From a virus, in the UHGV virus genome UHGV-1724231: a DNA stretch of 20,096 nucleotides. One strand, 5' to 3'. This document shows, piece after piece, positions 2,446 through 11,353 of this stretch (position 1 is the first letter of the stretch; each line of letters starts with the position of its first letter). The notes beneath the pieces were generated by a model, which saw only the letters and a list, made by a program, of their open reading frames with translations, did no database searches and was not told the DNA's origin. The position numbers and the translations under genes were made by a program.

Positions 2446-2892
2446 ATGGCTATGTATCAGCAATATTCCCCTAAAGACGTTGTATGTAGCTGGAACGGCA
2501 TTGCTATTGAAGGCTTTGCCCCAGACTCATTCTTGCGTCTACAGAGAACTTCTCCACTTGTTACGCCAGTTGTAGGTGCAGGTGGTCAAGTAGCTCTGAC
2601 AAGAAATGCAGATAAGACAGGTACTATTGAGATTGAGCTAATGCAGACTTCTCTCTCTAACCAGATGCTTTCTGCAATTCAAGCTAAACAAGATGACATG
2701 GAACTTGAAGAAGATATCTCATCTAACTTTGTAATTTATGACCCATCTGGTTCAGTTCTGGCAACAGGTATTAATGCTTGGTTGCAAGAGCTTCCACAGA
2801 TTGAATTAGGTCGTGACCAGAACTCGAAAACTTGGATTTTCGGTTGTGAGAAGTTAGATTACACTTCAACAATCCCTGCATCAAACGTTTAA
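2446..2892 (+). CDS. Tail tube protein
   Basis: 148-aa ORF directly after sheath gene, followed by a strong terminator, as expected for the highly expressed sheath/tube pair. Confidence 0.6.
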   Translation: MAMYQQYSPKDVVCSWNGIAIEGFAPDSFLRLQRTSPLVTPVVGAGGQVALTRNADKTGTIEIELMQTSLSNQMLSAIQAKQDDMELEEDISSNFVIYDPSGSVLATGINAWLQELPQIELGRDQNSKTWIFGCEKLDYTSTIPASNV

Positions 2893-2904
2893 CAAATCCT
2901 AATA

Positions 2905-2943
2905 AGGGGGAGACTGTAAAAGGTCTTCCCCTTTTGTGTTTTT
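2905..2943 (+). terminator. Rho-independent terminator after sheath/tube genes
   Basis: GGGGGAGAC…GTCTTCCCC imperfect stem followed by TTTTGTGTTTTT run, directly 3' of the tube gene stop. Confidence 0.6.
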
Positions 2944-2968
2944 ATAGCATAACTTTTAAGGAATCACA

Positions 2969-3376
2969 ATGAAGACTGAAACAAAACATATTAATGGTAA
3001 GAAGGTGACAATTATCCTTCTTGGTGCAAGAGATGGTATCAAAATTTCTATGAAGCTTGGTAAGGTCGTTGTACCCACCTTTGCTCAGATGATTACCAGT
3101 CTTGCTGGTAAAGATGAGAATCCAGAAGCTCCTAAAGTTCCTTTCAAAGAACTGGTAGAAGCTTGCTTTGACAGAATTGATGAGTTAGATATTGACTCAA
3201 TGGCAGAATTACTATTTCAGGGGGCAACTGTTGATGACTTCCCACTGAAAATTGATAGTTACTTCCAAGCAAACTACGGTGAATTTATTGACTTCTTAGC
3301 CTTTGCTTTGGAGGCAAACTTCGGAAGTTTTTTCGAGGCAAGCATTTTCAAAAGCCTAACTTCTCAGGAAGCTTAA
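2969..3376 (+). CDS. Tail assembly chaperone (G-like, upstream frame)
   Basis: 135-aa acidic ORF between tube and tape measure genes; contains in-frame T_TTT_TTC slippery heptamer near its 3' end. Confidence 0.6.
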   Translation: MKTETKHINGKKVTIILLGARDGIKISMKLGKVVVPTFAQMITSLAGKDENPEAPKVPFKELVEACFDRIDELDIDSMAELLFQGATVDDFPLKIDSYFQANYGEFIDFLAFALEANFGSFFEASIFKSLTSQEA

Positions 3377-3612
3377 AGTATGTTATGCAGACCCCGCTGA
3401 CTGACGGGGCTGTAGAATCAACTTATGAAGAAGCAGATGAGATGAAATTTGTGCTTGCCATTTATGGAATGGAAGGGTGTAAAGAAACACTCGACCAACT
3501 TTTCTCAATGACTTTCGTTGACCTATTATCTCTTCGTCAATATCTGGAAATCCAGAAGTCATACAAAGAAGAAATGGCCTATAACGAACTCAGAAAGGCA
3601 GGTAAAATTTAA
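3328..3612 (+). CDS. Tail assembly chaperone -1 frameshift extension (GT-like product; listed ORF 3385..3612)
   Basis: -1 frame is open from the slippery site at 3328-3334 through the 75-aa ORF to TAA at 3610-3612, which overlaps the ATG of the tape measure gene. Confidence 0.5.
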   Translation, partial: FFRGKHFQKPNFSGSLKYVMQTPLTDGAVESTYEEADEMKFVLAIYGMEGCKETLDQLFSMTFVDLLSLRQYLEIQKSYKEEMAYNELRKAGKI

Positions 3613-5846
3613 TGGCACAGTATACAGTTGATAGTTTTATTGTGGAACTTGGATTCAGTGAAAAGGTTGTAAAAGGTTTACAGAGAGTTGAAAAGATGGC
3701 TATGCAATCTGCTCAACGCATCGAAAGAAACATTAACAAAGCCTTTGACGTGAAGCCTAATAAAAGTTCTCAAGAAGCTCTAAACAGACTTGTTAAAAAC
3801 GCTCAGACTGCTTCGGGCAGAATCAATAAATCCCTAAACAACGCTCTCAATTTAGATTCTCAAGGTGTTAAATCTCTACGTAAATTAGAGACACAAGGGA
3901 AGAAGACAGCCAAAGAAATTAATAAGGCTCTAAGACAAGCTATGAACGTTGACGGTAAAGTTAATATTCGTGGTGGTGCTGGTAGAGGTCGTGGGAATAC
4001 CGTTCCCCCAATGGGTGGAGGTTCACCAAGAGTTAGACCTGATATTGCTCAGAGACAAATGGAAAGGATGTTTAATAACAACTTCTACTCTGGTCTTACT
4101 CGTCGTCTTGAAACTATTGGTGGACAGGGTAACCAAATGGCTGCTTCTTTCAGAGGCAACTTGCAAGGAATCTATAACAAGTATAAAGGGAGTGGTAAGG
4201 TTGGTGAATATGAGATGGAAGTTAAAAAACTCATTGACACAACCAAACGTTGGGTTATTGCAGAAAATGCTAGAATCAAGGCAGTCAAAGAATCAGCTTG
4301 GCTACAGGATAGAGCAAACTCTTCACTAAGACAGTTAATTGGTGGTTTTGTTTCTGCCTATGCTTTGTTAGAATTAGCTCAGAAGACCATTGATGCAGGT
4401 GTTAAAAGACAGTCTGCACAGTTAGCCTCTACAGCTATCTTTGGAGCAGATACACAGCAAGCTAGAATGTTCGCTGCTACATTCTCTCACCAGATTGGTC
4501 AGAACTACACAGACACTATGAAGCAGTACTCAAACTTTGCTGCTGGTGCTCAACCTGCACTTGGTTTCAAAGGTACTCAGGAGTTCTATAAGAACGCTGC
4601 AATGTTCTCTCGTATTAGAGGGGCATCTGATGAAGACTTGAAAGGTATCATGGTTGCTTTCCAGCAAATGGCATCTAAGGGTAAAGTTCAGGCTGAAGAA
4701 CTTCGTGGTCAGTTAGGTGACCGTTTGGCAGGTGCTGTTCAGTTGTTCTCTGATGCTATTGGTAAGACTCCACAAGAACTTGATAAGTTGATGCAGGATG
4801 GTAAGCTACTTGCTAAAGACGTTCTTCCAAAAGTCTCTGAGAAGATGAGAGAATTGGTTGACGCAGCAGGTGGTATGAATGCTGTATCTAAGCAGACTGC
4901 TACATCAATGGGTCAAGCAAAAGCTATGTGGGATAACACCTTAGTGGCTCTCTTCAACAACTCTAGTGATGGTATCTCACAGTTGTCTAACTCCGTTGCA
5001 ATGTTCTTGCAAGGTTCCCTTGGGACTACTGAAGCTCTTGGTACTGGTATTGGCTACCTGTTAAAAGGTGCTAGTAACCTTCTGGACTTCATCACAGATA
5101 TCATGTATCGAATCTCTGGACTGTACTACCTAGCAATGGGATATTACAGTGATTTAGGTGCAAGTCAACAGAAACTTATCAAGGAATCTGCTGAGTTAGT
5201 TGCAACGTTTACTGCTATCGGTGTTGCAATTGCAGCTATCACGAAAGTTGCTAAAATCTTCGGTGGTACTGTAGCATTTGTCAAGAGTATTTTTGAAGAA
5301 GGTATCTTGGCTAAGATTGCTCAAAAGCTTGGTCTGACAACCGCAGCAGAGACAGTAGCTACAACGGCTGGTGTAACAGGAACTAGAATGGCTCTTGGTG
5401 TAGGTGGTTCTGCACTTATGCTTTCAAGTTCGGCTGACCCAAATGCTGGGAAGAGATTTAGTGATGTTAATACACCAAACCCTTTCAACGAAGCTATTGC
5501 TGGGGTTACCAATGCTAAACGTCCGATGTTCTTTGACCAAAATGGACAGTTGAGGTTCGCACAATATACCACTGACACTTCTGGAAATATTCAGAGAGTG
5601 GATAATGGATTGTCAAATTGGGATATCATCATGAACAACCTGTCTGAGTCTTTAAACAACTTTGCAACTAAGTTTAACCAGACACCAATGATGATGAGTC
5701 CGTCTGGATTCCCATTACAAACTAAGCAGACGCTTAATGTTTCCTTTAATCTGGATGGTAAGCAGATTGCTAATAAAATGGTGGATATCACTAATAAGAG
5801 TCAGGAAGATATTCTGTTAAGTTCTAGCTACCCAGAGGATGAATAA
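3612..5846 (+). CDS. Tail tape measure protein
   Basis: 744-aa ORF, largest in the tail module, Ala/Gln/Lys-rich with Gly-rich segment ([17 protein letters not shown]) and hydrophobic C-terminal segments; immediately after the chaperone pair. Confidence 0.75.
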
Positions 5847-8608: not shown

Positions 8609-9024
8609 TGAAGACAGATTTTGCAATTAATCTTGGTGGAGACTACGTAGCAAAAATGGGTAATGACTCTGTATACGTAGCTCACGGAGATTTAAAAATT
8701 ACGGGTAATCAAATTAGAATTATCCCAGAAGATGATAAAGCTACACAGGTAGCACAGAGATTACATATTAGGTGTCTTCTAAGGGCTGGAGAAGTATTCT
8801 TTAATACCTCTGCTGGGTTCCCTTATTTGCAGCTTGCTAAGTTTAAACAGAAGACCTATATTTTTGATAATTATATGAAAGGTTACCTTGTTGAAACGAG
8901 AGATGTAACAAACATCTACAACTACTCTTCAACAATGGACAATGCAATGAGAAAAGTGTCAGTCAGATTTAATGCAACGACAACTGCTGACAATGTTGAA
9001 ATTAATACAGAGGTAAACATTTAA
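8608..9024 (+). CDS. Baseplate wedge protein (gp25 / GPW-like)
   Basis: 138-aa ORF immediately preceding the large baseplate-J-like gene, the typical W-J arrangement. Confidence 0.5.
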
Positions 9025-10493
9025 TGGCTGGATTAACAAATACAGGTTTACAAACAAAAAGATATCAAGAAATCTTGGATGATGTTAAAGCAAGTCTGTA
9101 TAGAGATATCTCACCAAACCTTGATGTTTCTGAAGATAGCGAACTTGGGTTATTCTTAGCTTCTGTTTGCCGAGGTCTTGCAGACGTTCATGAAATCTTG
9201 TCAGAAATCTATGATGGTGGTACTATTGACAAAGCTGAAGGATTCAGTTTAGATGATGTAACAGCTTTGAATGCTGTATACAGATATGTGGCACAGGCTA
9301 CAAGAGGTCAAGCTGAGTTCACTGGTAATTCTGGTGCTCCTGTACCAGCCACTACAAGATTAAGAAGCACAGCAGGTAACATCTTTTACCCTGTGTCAAC
9401 TTTCACACTGACTCCATCTTATTGTGTAGAGGCAAACTTAGAAGTTAACTCTTTACGAACAGATGCAAACTATGTCATTATCATTGACAACATTGAGTAT
9501 TCATATCAGCCGACTAGCTCTGACACCATTACAACATTGCTACAGAAACTTGCAGACTCTATCAATGGTGGTATTGTTGCAAAGGCTGAAGTTATTAATG
9601 ATGGTTCAGTGCTAAGAATTTATAAAGACACTGGAGATATCATTGCCAGAACTAACCCTATGGTTGTGACTGCAACGACATTCTTAACATTTACAAAGAT
9701 TACCTCAATCAGTGACGTTGTAGCAGATGAAACTGGAGCTATCCAGACTCTGGCAGGAACCTTGATTGAGATTGAAACAACTGTAGATGGTCTTGACAGT
9801 GTTTTCAACAGATATGACTTGACAACTGGTCGTGATGAGGAAACTGACACAGAACTGAGACAACGTTACTTAGAATCTTTGGCTGTTACTGGTGTGGGTA
9901 CTCTGGATGCTATTGTAGCTGCTGTAAAGAGAGTTCAAGGTGTGTCTGACGCTTCTGGTGTAGAGAATGACACTGAGACAACAAACTCTGATGGTCTTCC
10001 TCCGAAGTCTTTTAAGATTGTTGTAGTTGGTGGTCAGAATGATAATATTGCACAGGCAATCTGGGACACGAAACCTGCTGGTATTCGCCCATTTGGTTCA
10101 ATCTTTGGGACTGCATATGACTTAGGTTCTCTCCCTCATGATGTTTACTTTAGCAGACCAATGCCTAAATATGTTTTTGTCAAGGTTGCTTACTCTCTTT
10201 ACGATGAAGAAACTCTTAACATCCCTGAACAGGATATTCACGACAGGATTGTTCAAGGCATTAATGCCTATGGTAGAACATTGAAAGTGGGTAATGATGT
10301 AATCCCTAATAGAATCTATGGACATATCTATGATGTGATTCAAGGTATTGAAATTAATGAGATTAAGGTTGCACTCTCAAATAACCAAGCAATCCCACCT
10401 GCTGAGGGCCAGTACACTACTTCAAGAATCATTATTGATGGTGACCAGTACACTGTTTGGGAAAGCTCACAGTATACAATTGCCAAGGAGTAA
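9024..10493 (+). CDS. Baseplate wedge protein (baseplate J / gp6-like)
   Basis: 489-aa ORF following the gp25-like gene and preceding the fibre-attachment and fibre genes. Confidence 0.6.
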
Positions 10494-10495
10494 CA

Positions 10496-11353
10496 ATGTT
10501 TAAAAAGATTGAAAACTTTTATGAGAAAACATTGGACGAAAGAACTGTAACTCAATTCAAAGACAAGTTTATCTACACAAGCCTATTGAAATCTATCACA
10601 GATGAGTTACAATTATTAGAGGATATTAGTAATCAGTTATATACTGAAAGGAATATTCGTGTAGGTGTTGGCACACAACTTGATAACATCGGGGCTTTAA
10701 TTAAAGTCCCTAGACCTATTGGTGCTGATGATGACACTTACAGAGCTATCCTCTACATTCAAATTTTCTTAAGACGTTCTGACACTACACCAAGCTTTTT
10801 ACAAAAAGCTGTCATGACTCTTTACGATGCCTCATTCAGCCAGATTTTTGAGCATATTACGCCAAAGACTGGTGGGATTGTTGTCCGTGTAAACACTCGT
10901 AATAATGTGTTAGATACAGCATACACGCTTTCTAAGATTGCTGCAACAACTATTGGTTCAGCAGTTATCCTTAGAGATGTTACCTTAAATGGTACTGCTT
11001 GGACTCCTGTAGAGGTTGCTGATTCATCTCTGGCAATCACTGATGAGAGCAACAACTGGTTCGTAACCAACACTAACAAGGGTCTAATTACGAACAACAC
11101 AGGTGGCTCCCTAGAAGCAAATAAATTAGGTAGTTTTGCAGATGCAGGTGTAAGAGATGGTTATGTCAGAGTTGATAAAACTGGTGGCAGTGCCAGTAAA
11201 GATTATTTAAAAGTCAGCAAAACAAACAATAGCAACGACTATTTTATTGCTGGTAAAGAAACAGTAGCGGGTGGTGATTATGGGGTTATGGCAGAAGTCG
11301 CCCAAATCGTCAAAGGCAGAAAAGATAAATCTCAACAAGAAGGAAGTTCATAA
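10496..11353 (+). CDS. Baseplate wedge / tail-fibre attachment protein (gpI-like)
   Basis: ORF track starts at 10457, but ATG at 10496 has a perfect AAGGAG RBS 7 nt upstream and lies just after the upstream stop (10491-10493), so 10496 is the likelier start. Confidence 0.5.

What the first reader, a model, noticed from the sequence alone, without database searches (positions are those of the whole stretch)
3320..3612. Candidate programmed -1 frameshift in the tail assembly chaperone (G/GT-type)
A T_TTT_TTC heptamer sits at 3328-3334 in the correct X_XXY_YYZ register of the 135-aa chaperone ORF (codons AGT TTT TTC = S F F), 14 codons before its stop. The -1 frame is open from there through the 75-aa ORF to the tape-measure start. 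This is the conserved chaperone frameshift of tailed phages (lambda G/GT, P2 E/E+E'). The fusion product would be about 212 aa.
Basis: partly seen in the sequence, partly recalled or inferred. Interest (0 to 1): 0.5.

Follow-up and report, generated by a model that had tools for sequence, protein, structure and literature searches.

The report
Known tail-chaperone frameshift site, Felix O1-like phage
The T-TTT-TTC motif is real, correctly placed and conserved across a whole phage family, so it is very probably the standard tail-chaperone frameshift signal. It is already annotated and published for this group, so the finding is sound but ordinary.

Summary
The window comes from a Felix O1-like myophage (Ounavirinae, Mooglevirus; 99.9% identical to Shigella phage ESh22). 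T_TTT_TTC lies at 3328-3334 in X_XXY_YYZ register of the 135-aa chaperone ORF (Pfam Phage_TAC_15). The -1 frame is open from 3292 to the stop at 3610-3612, which overlaps the tape-measure start. The fusion would be 214 aa.

One genome alone proves little: about 0.10 in-register heptamers are expected by chance in the overlap. The comparative evidence is strong:
- T_TTT_TTY sits at the same NF-x-SFF position in all 36 distinct homologues, down to about 32% protein identity.
- Synonymous variation collapses exactly from the heptamer onward.
- Distant blastn hits match only 3317-3357.
- Several lineages have no start codon for 57-64 codons of the extension, yet that stretch evolves like coding sequence.

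I found no conserved 3' structure. A Shine-Dalgarno-like GGAGG lies 13 nt upstream and may stimulate the shift.

The site is already annotated as ribosomal slippage in phage Michonne, mentioned in the Moogle genome announcement, and discussed in a 2025 paper. I found no experimental proof. Ribosomal versus transcriptional slippage cannot be separated from sequence.

The parts
2969..3376 (+). ORF1, the short tail assembly chaperone (TAC-N, 135 aa), product of standard decoding
   Evidence: Pfam PF21822 Phage_TAC_15, E 7.2e-21, 75.5 bits against a cutoff of 22. PHROG 1613 'tail assembly chaperone', E 5.5e-49. Lies between the tube gene (2446-2892) and the tape-measure gene.
3310..3314 (+). Shine-Dalgarno-like GGAGG, 13 nt 5' of the heptamer; candidate 5' stimulator (inferred)
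   Evidence: Anti-SD duplex -9.3 kcal/mol; only 0.33% of coding positions in the window reach -8 or lower. Kept in Mooglevirus, Felixounavirus, Suspvirus and Arno18. AGGAG/GGGAG lies 11 nt upstream in L039/L040/L041/L043. Absent in Kolesnikvirus, P778 and L042. The Leu codon supplying the first G is TTG or CTG in 31 of 34 sequences.
3328..3334 (+). Slippery heptamer T_TTT_TTC (P-site UUU, A-site UUC, both read by tRNA-Phe)
   Evidence: In register. T_TTT_TTY is at the homologous position in all 36 distinct ORF1 sequences: Ser codon AGT 35/35, first Phe codon TTT 36/36. The slippage coordinate annotated for Michonne falls inside it. H_HH.U_UU.Y is among the most efficient -1 motifs in E. coli (PMC4066793).
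3335..3376 (+). Dual-coding overlap: ORF1 C-terminus in frame 0 and the start of the extension in frame -1
   Evidence: Only 3 of 11 codon columns here show synonymous variation, against 17 of 21 just upstream (Fisher p = 0.006). Erwinia phage records (Kolesnikvirus phiEa21-4 among them) match only window 3317-3357, at 90% identity; Yersinia phage P778 matches only 3236-3356, at 79%.
3334..3612 (+). -1 frame extension (92 codons plus stop) forming the C-terminal domain of the 214-aa long chaperone (TAC-NC)
   Evidence: Open frame. PHROG 4963 'tail assembly chaperone', E 3.3e-51. The homologous extension is open in every locus with a readable extension. It evolves as coding sequence where no start codon exists.
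3385..3612 (+). ORF2 as usually annotated (75 aa from ATG 3385); probably just the part of the extension downstream of an incidental ATG
   Evidence: Weak, badly spaced SD (CAGGAA, -4.3 kcal/mol, 14 nt from the ATG), whereas the other genes mostly have an SD 4-10 nt away. The ATG is at a different codon in Felixounavirus, is ATA in L030, and is absent in Kolesnikvirus and L039-L043.
3612..5846 (+). Tape measure protein gene; its ATG overlaps the stop of the extension (TAATG)
   Evidence: PHROG 4036 E = 0; Pfam TMP_3 E 2.4e-17.

Best explanation
This is the programmed -1 ribosomal frameshift of the tail assembly chaperone gene of a Felix O1-like (Ounavirinae, Mooglevirus) myophage.

Most ribosomes translate ORF1 to its stop at 3374-3376 and make the 135-aa short chaperone. 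A minority slip while two tRNA-Phe occupy UUU (P site) and UUC (A site) of U_UUU_UUC at 3328-3334. They move back one base, re-pair with UUU UUU, and continue in the -1 frame to 3610-3612. The product is a 214-aa long chaperone: 122 N-terminal residues shared with the short form, plus a 92-residue C-terminal domain.

By analogy with lambda gpG/gpGT, the shared N-terminal part would coat the tape measure protein encoded immediately downstream. The C-terminal domain of the rarer long form would recruit the tube protein, and the fixed slippage rate would set the ratio of the two forms.

The signal appears to be the heptamer plus, probably, an upstream Shine-Dalgarno-like GGAGG (3310-3314) acting as in dnaX and IS elements. 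There is no conserved downstream hairpin or pseudoknot.

Shown here: the anatomy, the conservation and the coding signatures. Inferred: that the shift occurs, its efficiency, the role of GGAGG, and the assembly function.
For: Anatomy:
- Heptamer in register and -1 frame open to the tape-measure start.
- ORF1 is a tail assembly chaperone by Pfam and PHROG; ORF2 matches a PHROG chaperone family.
- Gene order is sheath, tube, chaperone, extension, tape measure.

Conservation:
- T_TTT_TTY is at the same NF-x-SFF position in 41 loci / 36 distinct sequences. These include Felix O1, Suspvirus, Kolesnikvirus, Pectobacterium phage Arno18, Yersinia phage P778 and Alteromonas-phage-like contigs at about 32% identity.
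- The synonymous choices that would destroy the motif are never used. The window's codon usage gives about 0.33 probability per lineage of getting the motif from S-F-F by chance.
- The -1 frame is open from the heptamer to its stop, which in the Ounavirinae loci inspected lies at or within a few bases of the tape-measure ATG.

Frame-specific signals:
- Synonymous variation drops from 17/21 to 3/11 codons exactly at the heptamer, not at the start of the open -1 frame (p = 0.006).
- Distant blastn hits to Erwinia phages cover only 3317-3357; the P778 hit covers 3236-3356.

No other route to the extension:
- In Kolesnikvirus and L040-L043 the first ATG/GTG/TTG in the extension is 46-64 codons after the heptamer, and 18 codons in L039.
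- The stretch between ORF1's stop and that first start codon shows third-position-biased substitution: 2/1/7, 1/1/7 and 11/11/19.
- ORF2's own ATG has a poor SD.

Motif and stimulator:
- U_UU.U_UU.Y is in the most efficient class in E. coli (PMC4066793).
- A strong SD-like GGAGG lies 13 nt upstream, at 0.3% background. A 5' SD stimulator is a major feature of dnaX and of about 56% of IS frameshifts (PMC5009743).

Prior annotation and expression:
- Michonne carries a joined CDS with 'ribosomal slippage (47149)' inside the heptamer. [quoted passage not shown] PMC12846349 reports a conserved GTTTTT motif in 231 Andersonviridae.
- Peptides of the ORF2 homologue were found by mass spectrometry in Sf14, so the -1 frame is expressed (PMC11821841).
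Against: - I found no experimental demonstration of the fusion protein or of frameshifting in any Ounavirinae phage.
- There is no conserved 3' stimulatory structure. The first 46 nt after the heptamer fold no better than shuffles (z = 0.09), and the alignment fold gives -0.47 kcal/mol with no covariation. No Rfam frameshift element matches.
- The SD-like element is missing in Kolesnikvirus, P778 and L042, and it overlaps a conserved L-E-A peptide, so protein constraint may partly explain it.
- In Sf14 virions the ORF2 homologue was detected but the ORF1 homologue was not. That is not what a simple intact fusion predicts. It leaves room for an independently made or cleaved C-terminal product.
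- Enterobacterial members do have an ATG near the start of ORF2.
- The sequences compared are phylogenetically related, so counts overstate independence.
Confidence: 0.83

Rival explanations
1. Transcriptional slippage. RNA polymerase stutters on the T6 run and adds one U to a fraction of transcripts. Standard translation of those mRNAs then gives exactly the same 214-aa fusion (S-F-F-R...).
For: - The site is a homopolymer run: T6 here, T7 in L039-L043.
- A U7 transcript encodes the identical protein, so protein data cannot separate the two routes (sequence logic; the CL1 record with T7 reads through as a 213-aa CDS).
- No 3' RNA structure is needed under this model.
- Two GenBank records carry indels in exactly this run, which shows polymerases or sequencers slip there.
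Against: - Efficient slippage by bacterial RNA polymerase is described for runs of about 9 A or T (PMC5009743). This run is 6.
- The run is always in the exact X_XXY_YYZ codon register, and the third-codon position varies only C/T. Register matters for ribosomes, not for polymerase.
- An SD-like element at dnaX-like spacing fits a ribosomal mechanism.
Confidence: 0.08
2. No recoding. ORF2 (3385-3612) is an independent 75-aa gene translated from its own ATG, perhaps by coupling to ORF1 termination. The heptamer is then a by-product of the conserved S-F-F peptide.
For: - An ATG lies 9 nt after the ORF1 stop here, and 3 nt after it in Felixounavirus.
- Most GenBank records annotate two separate genes.
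- Sf14 virion mass spectrometry found the ORF2 homologue without the ORF1 homologue.
- Among 85 database clusters, none is a natural in-frame fusion.
Against: - The ATG is not conserved in position. It is ATA in L030, and absent for 57-64 codons in Kolesnikvirus and in L040, L042 and L043, although that stretch evolves as coding sequence.
- The SD is weak and 14 nt away.
- Synonymous constraint begins at the heptamer, about 17 codons upstream of the ATG.
- The motif-preserving codons AGT and TTT are invariant, while other Phe columns mix TTT and TTC.
Confidence: 0.06
3. Chance. The heptamer and the open -1 frame are coincidental and have no function.
For: About 0.10 in-register heptamers are expected in a 28-codon overlap, so one genome alone is unconvincing.
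Against: The motif is conserved in every homologue across several genera and down to about 32% identity. There is also a nucleotide-conservation island and a coding signature in the extension.
Confidence: 0.02

Closest known systems
Tape-measure chaperone frameshift annotated in Mooglevirus phages Michonne, Moogle, Mordin and Mijalis (GenBank KT001916, KM236239; PMC4319497)
   Same: It is the same gene, the same heptamer and the same flanking sequence: 100% identical from about 25 nt upstream to 40 nt downstream. Michonne carries a joined CDS with 'ribosomal slippage (47149)', a coordinate inside the heptamer.
   Different: Nothing of substance. This window's nearest record (ESh22) and many others annotate two separate hypothetical proteins instead. 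The ORF1 tail differs by one or two codons.
TAC-N/TAC-NC -1 frameshift proposed for Pakpunavirus Adele and Andersonviridae (PMC12846349, 2025)
   Same: A conserved GTTTTT motif near the 3' end of TAC-N, and an uninterrupted -1 frame to the tape-measure gene. That paper also checked 231 Andersonviridae (the family holding Ounavirinae) and cites the Moogle annotation.
   Different: That paper argues from alignment only, and I saw no mention of a 5' SD-like element. New here: synonymous constraint starts at the heptamer, several lineages lack start codons, there is no 3' structure, and GGAGG lies 13 nt upstream.
Phage lambda gpG/gpGT (Levin 1993; Xu 2004, 2013, 2014, as summarised in PMC5009743)
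   Same: Two overlapping ORFs between the major tail gene and the tape-measure gene. [quoted passage not shown] The short and long forms are presumed to be needed in a fixed ratio.
   Different: The heptamer is G_GGA_AAG in lambda (my recollection) and T_TTT_TTC here. Lambda is a siphovirus and this is a contractile-tailed phage. I found no detectable sequence or fold relationship. Pfam places ORF1 in Phage_TAC_15, and the PDB searches were uninformative. Lambda G and GT are absent from virions, whereas the ORF2 homologue was detected in Sf14 particles.
Phage P2 E/E+E' (contractile-tail chaperone frameshift)
   Same: A myovirus chaperone pair upstream of the tape-measure gene, with a T-rich slip site. 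I recall T_TTT_TTG from Christie et al. 2002; this is not verified here.
   Different: A different protein family and a different last base of the heptamer.
E. coli dnaX and IS3/IS1-family -1 frameshift signals
   Same: An X_XXY_YYZ heptamer with an internal Shine-Dalgarno-like sequence about 10-14 nt upstream. The 5' SD is a major feature of dnaX and of about 56% of IS elements.
   Different: Those signals usually also have a 3' hairpin or pseudoknot, and none is conserved here. dnaX shifts at about 50%, whereas a chaperone signal is expected to shift at a few percent.

Membership tests
Tailed-phage tail assembly chaperone -1 frameshift (lambda G/GT type) | Two consecutive ORFs located between the major tail/tube gene and the tape measure gene | tested here: met
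   Order is sheath 1078-2430, tube 2446-2892, ORF1 2969-3376, ORF2 3385-3612, tape measure 3612-5846.
Tailed-phage tail assembly chaperone -1 frameshift (lambda G/GT type) | The upstream ORF belongs to a recognised tail assembly chaperone family | tested here: met
   Pfam PF21822 Phage_TAC_15, 75.5 bits against a cutoff of 22; PHROG 1613 E 5.5e-49.
Tailed-phage tail assembly chaperone -1 frameshift (lambda G/GT type) | The second ORF is in the -1 frame, overlaps the end of the first, and is open from the shift site | tested here: met
   The -1 frame is open over 3292-3609, and the overlap with ORF1 is 82 nt up to its stop codon.
Tailed-phage tail assembly chaperone -1 frameshift (lambda G/GT type) | A slippery X_XXY_YYZ heptamer in zero-frame register inside the overlap, conserved among homologues | tested here: met
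   T_TTT_TTC at 3328-3334. T_TTT_TTY is present in 36 of 36 distinct homologues.
Tailed-phage tail assembly chaperone -1 frameshift (lambda G/GT type) | The extension is translated as a continuation of ORF1: a coding signature upstream of, or without, any start codon | tested here: met
   Synonymous constraint begins at the heptamer (p = 0.006). In start-less stretches substitutions are third-position biased.
Tailed-phage tail assembly chaperone -1 frameshift (lambda G/GT type) | The fusion protein is actually produced at a low, fixed ratio to the short form | not testable with these tools
   This needs a reporter assay, a western blot or junction-peptide mass spectrometry. Published Sf14 virion proteomics shows only that the ORF2 region is expressed.
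Tailed-phage tail assembly chaperone -1 frameshift (lambda G/GT type) | Both forms are required for tail assembly; the N domain binds the tape measure and the C domain binds the tube protein | not testable with these tools
   Inferred from lambda only (PMC5009743).
Tailed-phage tail assembly chaperone -1 frameshift (lambda G/GT type) | Fold resemblance of ORF1 to solved chaperone structures | tested here: inconclusive
   The AF2 model has pLDDT 76.5. The best Foldseek PDB hit has E = 0.21 (5ir0, unknown function). phmmer against PDB sequences found nothing.
dnaX / IS-type stimulated -1 frameshift signal | An internal Shine-Dalgarno-like sequence about 10-14 nt 5' of the heptamer | tested here: met
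   GGAGG at 3310-3314, spacer 13 nt, duplex -9.3 kcal/mol, background 0.3%. Only presence was tested, not function. The 10-14 nt optimum is my recollection of Larsen et al. 1994.
dnaX / IS-type stimulated -1 frameshift signal | A stable hairpin or pseudoknot 5-9 nt 3' of the heptamer | tested here: not met
   z = 0.09 for 3335-3380. The consensus fold gives -0.47 kcal/mol with 0 compensatory pairs. No Rfam hit.
Programmed transcriptional slippage | A long homopolymer run, about 9 or more A/T for bacterial RNA polymerase | tested here: not met
   The run is T6 here and T6-T7 in all relatives. The run-length criterion comes from PMC5009743.

The most novel reading that the evidence does not exclude
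The C-terminal 'T' part may not behave like lambda gpGT. In Felix O1-like phages it could be made, at least partly, as a separate or cleaved polypeptide that stays in the virion, since the ORF2 homologue was detected in Sf14 particles and the ORF1 homologue was not. Alternatively, the recoding could be transcriptional slippage on a T run of only six. Either would depart from the textbook chaperone model.
Probability: 0.1. Interest if true: 0.45.

Novelty: already known. Interest (0 to 1): 0.12.

Why it matters
For annotation, ESh22-like genomes and most of the roughly 300 related GenBank records list two separate hypothetical or chaperone genes. They should carry a joined CDS of about 214 aa with ribosomal slippage at the T_TTT_TTC.

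Biologically it adds nothing new in kind. It is one more instance of the near-universal chaperone frameshift of long-tailed phages, in a family used for Salmonella, Shigella and E. coli biocontrol.

Two minor points have some value. The signal seems to rely on a 5' Shine-Dalgarno-like element rather than a 3' structure. Existing Sf14 proteomics data could confirm the junction cheaply.

Tried and rejected
- **3' stimulatory structure.** I folded 3335-3424 and 3335-3380, ran an alignment fold over 8 lineages, and folded the homologous 46-nt stretches. Nothing was conserved or better than shuffles in Ounavirinae. Only the distant L039 and L040 have a small hairpin (z about -2).
- **Rfam scan of 2800-3800.** It returned only a chance snoRNA hit at E = 0.53.
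- **Solved structures.** phmmer of the fusion against PDB sequences found nothing relevant. An AF2 model of ORF1 searched with Foldseek against the PDB gave a best E of 0.21. Fold-level membership therefore stays untested.
- **Natural in-frame fusions.** A search of 5.8 billion proteins with the fusion returned 85 clusters, all 124-136 aa. The two fused GenBank CDSs (CL1 with T7, MET-P1-301 with T4) have indels in the T run itself. They are probably sequencing artefacts, and the MET record also has a fragmented tape-measure gene.
- **Other shift sites in the overlap.** The only one is an in-register U_UUC tetramer at 3346-3349. I rejected it as the main site because synonymous constraint already holds for the three codons between it and the heptamer.
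- **Vladimirov et al. 2022.** The paper on T4-like chaperone genes could not be read because it is not held.
- **Sf14 supplements.** They contain no peptide-level data.

Full report
**What the window is.** The region around the finding is 99.9% identical to Shigella phage ESh22. It is 88-92% identical to other Mooglevirus phages (Ounavirinae, the Felix O1-like myophages), and 256 phage records match by megablast. The local gene order is:
- neck/terminator proteins;
- sheath (1078-2430; PHROG 205, Pfam DUF3383);
- tube (2446-2892; KPP10_Orf10/rV5 Orf52-like);
- ORF1 (2969-3376);
- ORF2 (3385-3612);
- tape measure protein (3612-5846);
- baseplate genes.

**Check of the observation.** Every element of the description is present.
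- Bases 3328-3334 read TTTTTTC.
- ORF1 reads AGT TTT TTC across them (S120 F121 F122), so the heptamer is in X_XXY_YYZ register. The stop is 14 codons later.
- The -1 frame is open from 3292 to the TAA at 3610-3612, which overlaps the tape-measure ATG.

On its own the coincidence is weak. The long ORFs of the window contain 22 in-register heptamers in 6227 codons, so about 0.10 is expected in the 28-codon overlap.

**Identity of the proteins.**
- ORF1 is a bona fide tail assembly chaperone: Pfam Phage_TAC_15, E 7e-21 and well above the curated cutoff; PHROG 1613, E 5.5e-49.
- The -1 frame extension matches PHROG 4963, also labelled tail assembly chaperone, E 3e-51. It has no Pfam match.
- An AlphaFold2 model of ORF1 (pLDDT 76.5) and a sequence search found no informative solved structure. 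Fold-level comparison with lambda-type chaperones remains open.

**Comparative test: motif conservation.** I gathered 48 related loci from GenBank phages and IMG/VR. In the 41 usable loci (36 distinct ORF1 DNA sequences), a T_TTT_TTC or T_TTT_TTT heptamer lies in register at the same place, on the conserved peptide N-F-x-S-F-F.

The set covers Mooglevirus, Felixounavirus (including Felix O1 itself), Suspvirus, Kolesnikvirus (Erwinia), Pectobacterium phage Arno18 and Yersinia phage P778. It also includes metagenomic contigs of only about 32% identity; the one I checked, L040, is related to an Alteromonas myophage.

The codon choices that keep the motif are invariant. Ser is AGT in 35 of 35 sequences and the first Phe is TTT in 36 of 36. 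Other conserved Phe columns in the same alignment mix TTT and TTC. The last heptamer position is the only one that varies (C or T), as slippage rules allow. With the window's codon usage, S-F-F would give the motif with probability about 0.33 per independent lineage.

**Comparative test: the -1 frame.** In every locus with a readable extension the -1 frame is open from the heptamer to a stop. In the Ounavirinae loci inspected, that stop overlaps or lies within a few bases of the tape-measure ATG. In Kolesnikvirus and in contigs L040-L043 the first possible start codon in that frame lies 46-64 codons downstream of the heptamer (18 codons in L039). The stretch between ORF1's stop and that first start codon still evolves like coding sequence. 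Substitutions by codon position are 2/1/7, 1/1/7 and 11/11/19 in three pairs. That stretch can only be translated by ribosomes arriving from ORF1.

**Where the shift happens.** Synonymous variation is common just upstream of the heptamer (17 of 21 codon columns vary). It almost vanishes from the heptamer to the ORF1 stop (3 of 11; Fisher p = 0.006). The drop starts at the heptamer, not at 3292 where the -1 frame opens. This is what dual coding from the shift site predicts.

Sensitive blastn gives an independent pointer. It matches Erwinia phage records (Kolesnikvirus phiEa21-4 among them) over only 41 nt, window 3317-3357, at 90% identity. The Yersinia P778 hit covers only 3236-3356. The rest of the locus has diverged beyond detection.

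A second in-register U_UUC tetramer at 3346-3349 is a possible minor site. However, the three codons between it and the heptamer are already invariant at synonymous positions, which favours the heptamer.

**Stimulators.** There is no conserved downstream structure.
- The 46 nt after the heptamer fold no better than shuffled sequence (z = 0.09).
- The eight-lineage consensus fold is -0.47 kcal/mol with no compensatory pairs.
- Rfam has no match.

Upstream there is a strong Shine-Dalgarno-like GGAGG at 3310-3314, 13 nt before the heptamer. Its anti-SD duplex energy is -9.3 kcal/mol, and only 0.33% of coding positions in the window reach -8. It is kept in Mooglevirus, Felixounavirus, Suspvirus and Arno18.

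The Leu codon supplying its first G is TTG or CTG in 31 of 34 sequences. In the Alteromonas-like group the amino acids differ (K/R-E instead of E-A), yet AGGAG or GGGAG lies 11 nt upstream. The element is absent in Kolesnikvirus, P778 and L042.

Internal SD sequences are established 5' stimulators of -1 shifting in dnaX and in many IS elements (PMC5009743). I regard a role here as plausible but unproven.

The heptamer class itself (H_HH.U_UU.Y) is among the most efficient in E. coli and is avoided in E. coli genes (PMC4066793).

**Independent initiation of ORF2.** ATG 3385 has only a weak SD-like CAGGAA, 14 nt away. The other genes of the window mostly have an SD 4-10 nt from the start. The ATG sits at a different codon in Felixounavirus, is ATA in one member (L030), and is missing in other genera.

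One published observation does not fit a simple intact fusion. In virions of the 90%-identical phage Sf14, mass spectrometry detected the ORF2 homologue (gp42, FDI99_gp115) but not the ORF1 homologue (gp41, FDI99_gp116) (PMC11821841). This shows the -1 frame is expressed. It leaves open a separately made or cleaved C-terminal product, or trace carry-over.

**Ribosomal or transcriptional slippage.** A transcript with one extra U encodes exactly the same protein, so only RNA data can separate the two. The strict codon register, the short run (6, against about 9 for efficient bacterial polymerase slippage) and the SD-like element favour the ribosome.

Two GenBank records have indels in this run that fuse the ORFs: CL1 with T7 and MET-P1-301 with T4. 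The MET record has a fragmented tape-measure gene, so these look like homopolymer sequencing errors. A search of 5.8 billion proteins with the fusion found 85 clusters, all 124-136 aa, and no natural fusion.

**What is already known.**
- GenBank record KT001916 (Citrobacter phage Michonne) carries a two-piece CDS labelled 'tape-measure chaperone, ribosomal slippage (47149)'. That coordinate falls inside the heptamer, and the flanks are identical to the window.
- A 2025 paper on Pseudomonas phage Adele aligned the chaperone locus of 231 Andersonviridae. It reported the conserved GTTTTT motif at the 3' end of TAC-N, citing the Mooglevirus annotations (PMC12846349).
- The general phenomenon is the lambda gpG/gpGT paradigm (PMC5009743).
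- I found no experimental verification for this phage family.

**Verdict.** It is a known, already annotated feature of this phage group, so interest is low. The modest additions here are:
- mapping of the shift site by synonymous-site constraint;
- the absence of a 3' structure;
- the candidate 5' SD-like stimulator;
- a concrete, cheap test using existing Sf14 proteomics data.

Noticed in passing
window 2904-2943: A strong rho-independent terminator-like hairpin (12 pairs plus a T tail) lies between the tube gene and the chaperone gene. It is annotated as a terminator in Michonne and wV8. It would lower transcription of the chaperone and tape-measure genes relative to sheath and tube.
   Followed up: partly
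Sf14 homologues of window 2969-3376 and 3385-3612 (L045 724-1125 and 1134-1361): Published virion mass spectrometry of Shigella phage Sf14 lists the ORF2 homologue (gp42) as detected and the ORF1 homologue (gp41) as not detected. This is unexpected for a lambda-like chaperone pair, which is absent from virions, and for an intact fusion (PMC11821841). Peptide-level data are not in the held supplements.
   Followed up: partly
L008 657-663 (phage CL1, OK040806) and L046 (phage MET-P1-301, PV700625), homologous to window 3328-3333: Two GenBank records have indels in exactly this T run (T7 and T4). Each puts both ORFs in one frame, annotated as a single CDS of about 213 aa. These are probably homopolymer sequencing errors, since the MET record also has a fragmented tape-measure gene.
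   Followed up: partly
window 3346-3349: A second in-register U_UUC tetramer (codons ATT TTC) lies inside the overlap. It is conserved in Ounavirinae and is a possible minor shift site.
   Followed up: partly
window 3390-3413: A GC-rich hairpin (GACCCCGCTGACTGACGGGGCT region) lies inside ORF2, about 55 nt after the heptamer, too far for a classical stimulator. It is kept in Mooglevirus and Suspvirus but not in Felixounavirus or Kolesnikvirus.
   Followed up: partly
L039 1840-1885, L040 1861-1906: In two of the distant contigs (L040 is related to an Alteromonas myophage), a small hairpin starts 1-4 nt after the T7 heptamer (z about -1.8 to -2.1). This is unlike the enterobacterial phages.
   Followed up: no
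GenBank GU169904 (Staphylococcus phage SA1) and MG065664 (Campylobacter phage A132): Records named for Staphylococcus and Campylobacter phages contain a Felix O1-like chaperone locus at about 79% protein identity to the window. This suggests mislabelled or mixed records.
   Followed up: no
window 2969-3373 (AF2 model of ORF1): The best structural neighbour in the PDB is ORF19 of a Vibrio cholerae PICI-like element (5ir0; Foldseek probability 0.97 but E = 0.21, TM 0.49-0.64). It is not significant, but it hints that this satellite protein could be chaperone-like.
   Followed up: no
window 10459-10465: A G_GGA_AAG heptamer lies where ORF 9024-10493 overlaps the -1-frame ORF 10457-11353. It is in register with the downstream frame, not the upstream one, so it does not look like a -1 shift signal.
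   Followed up: no
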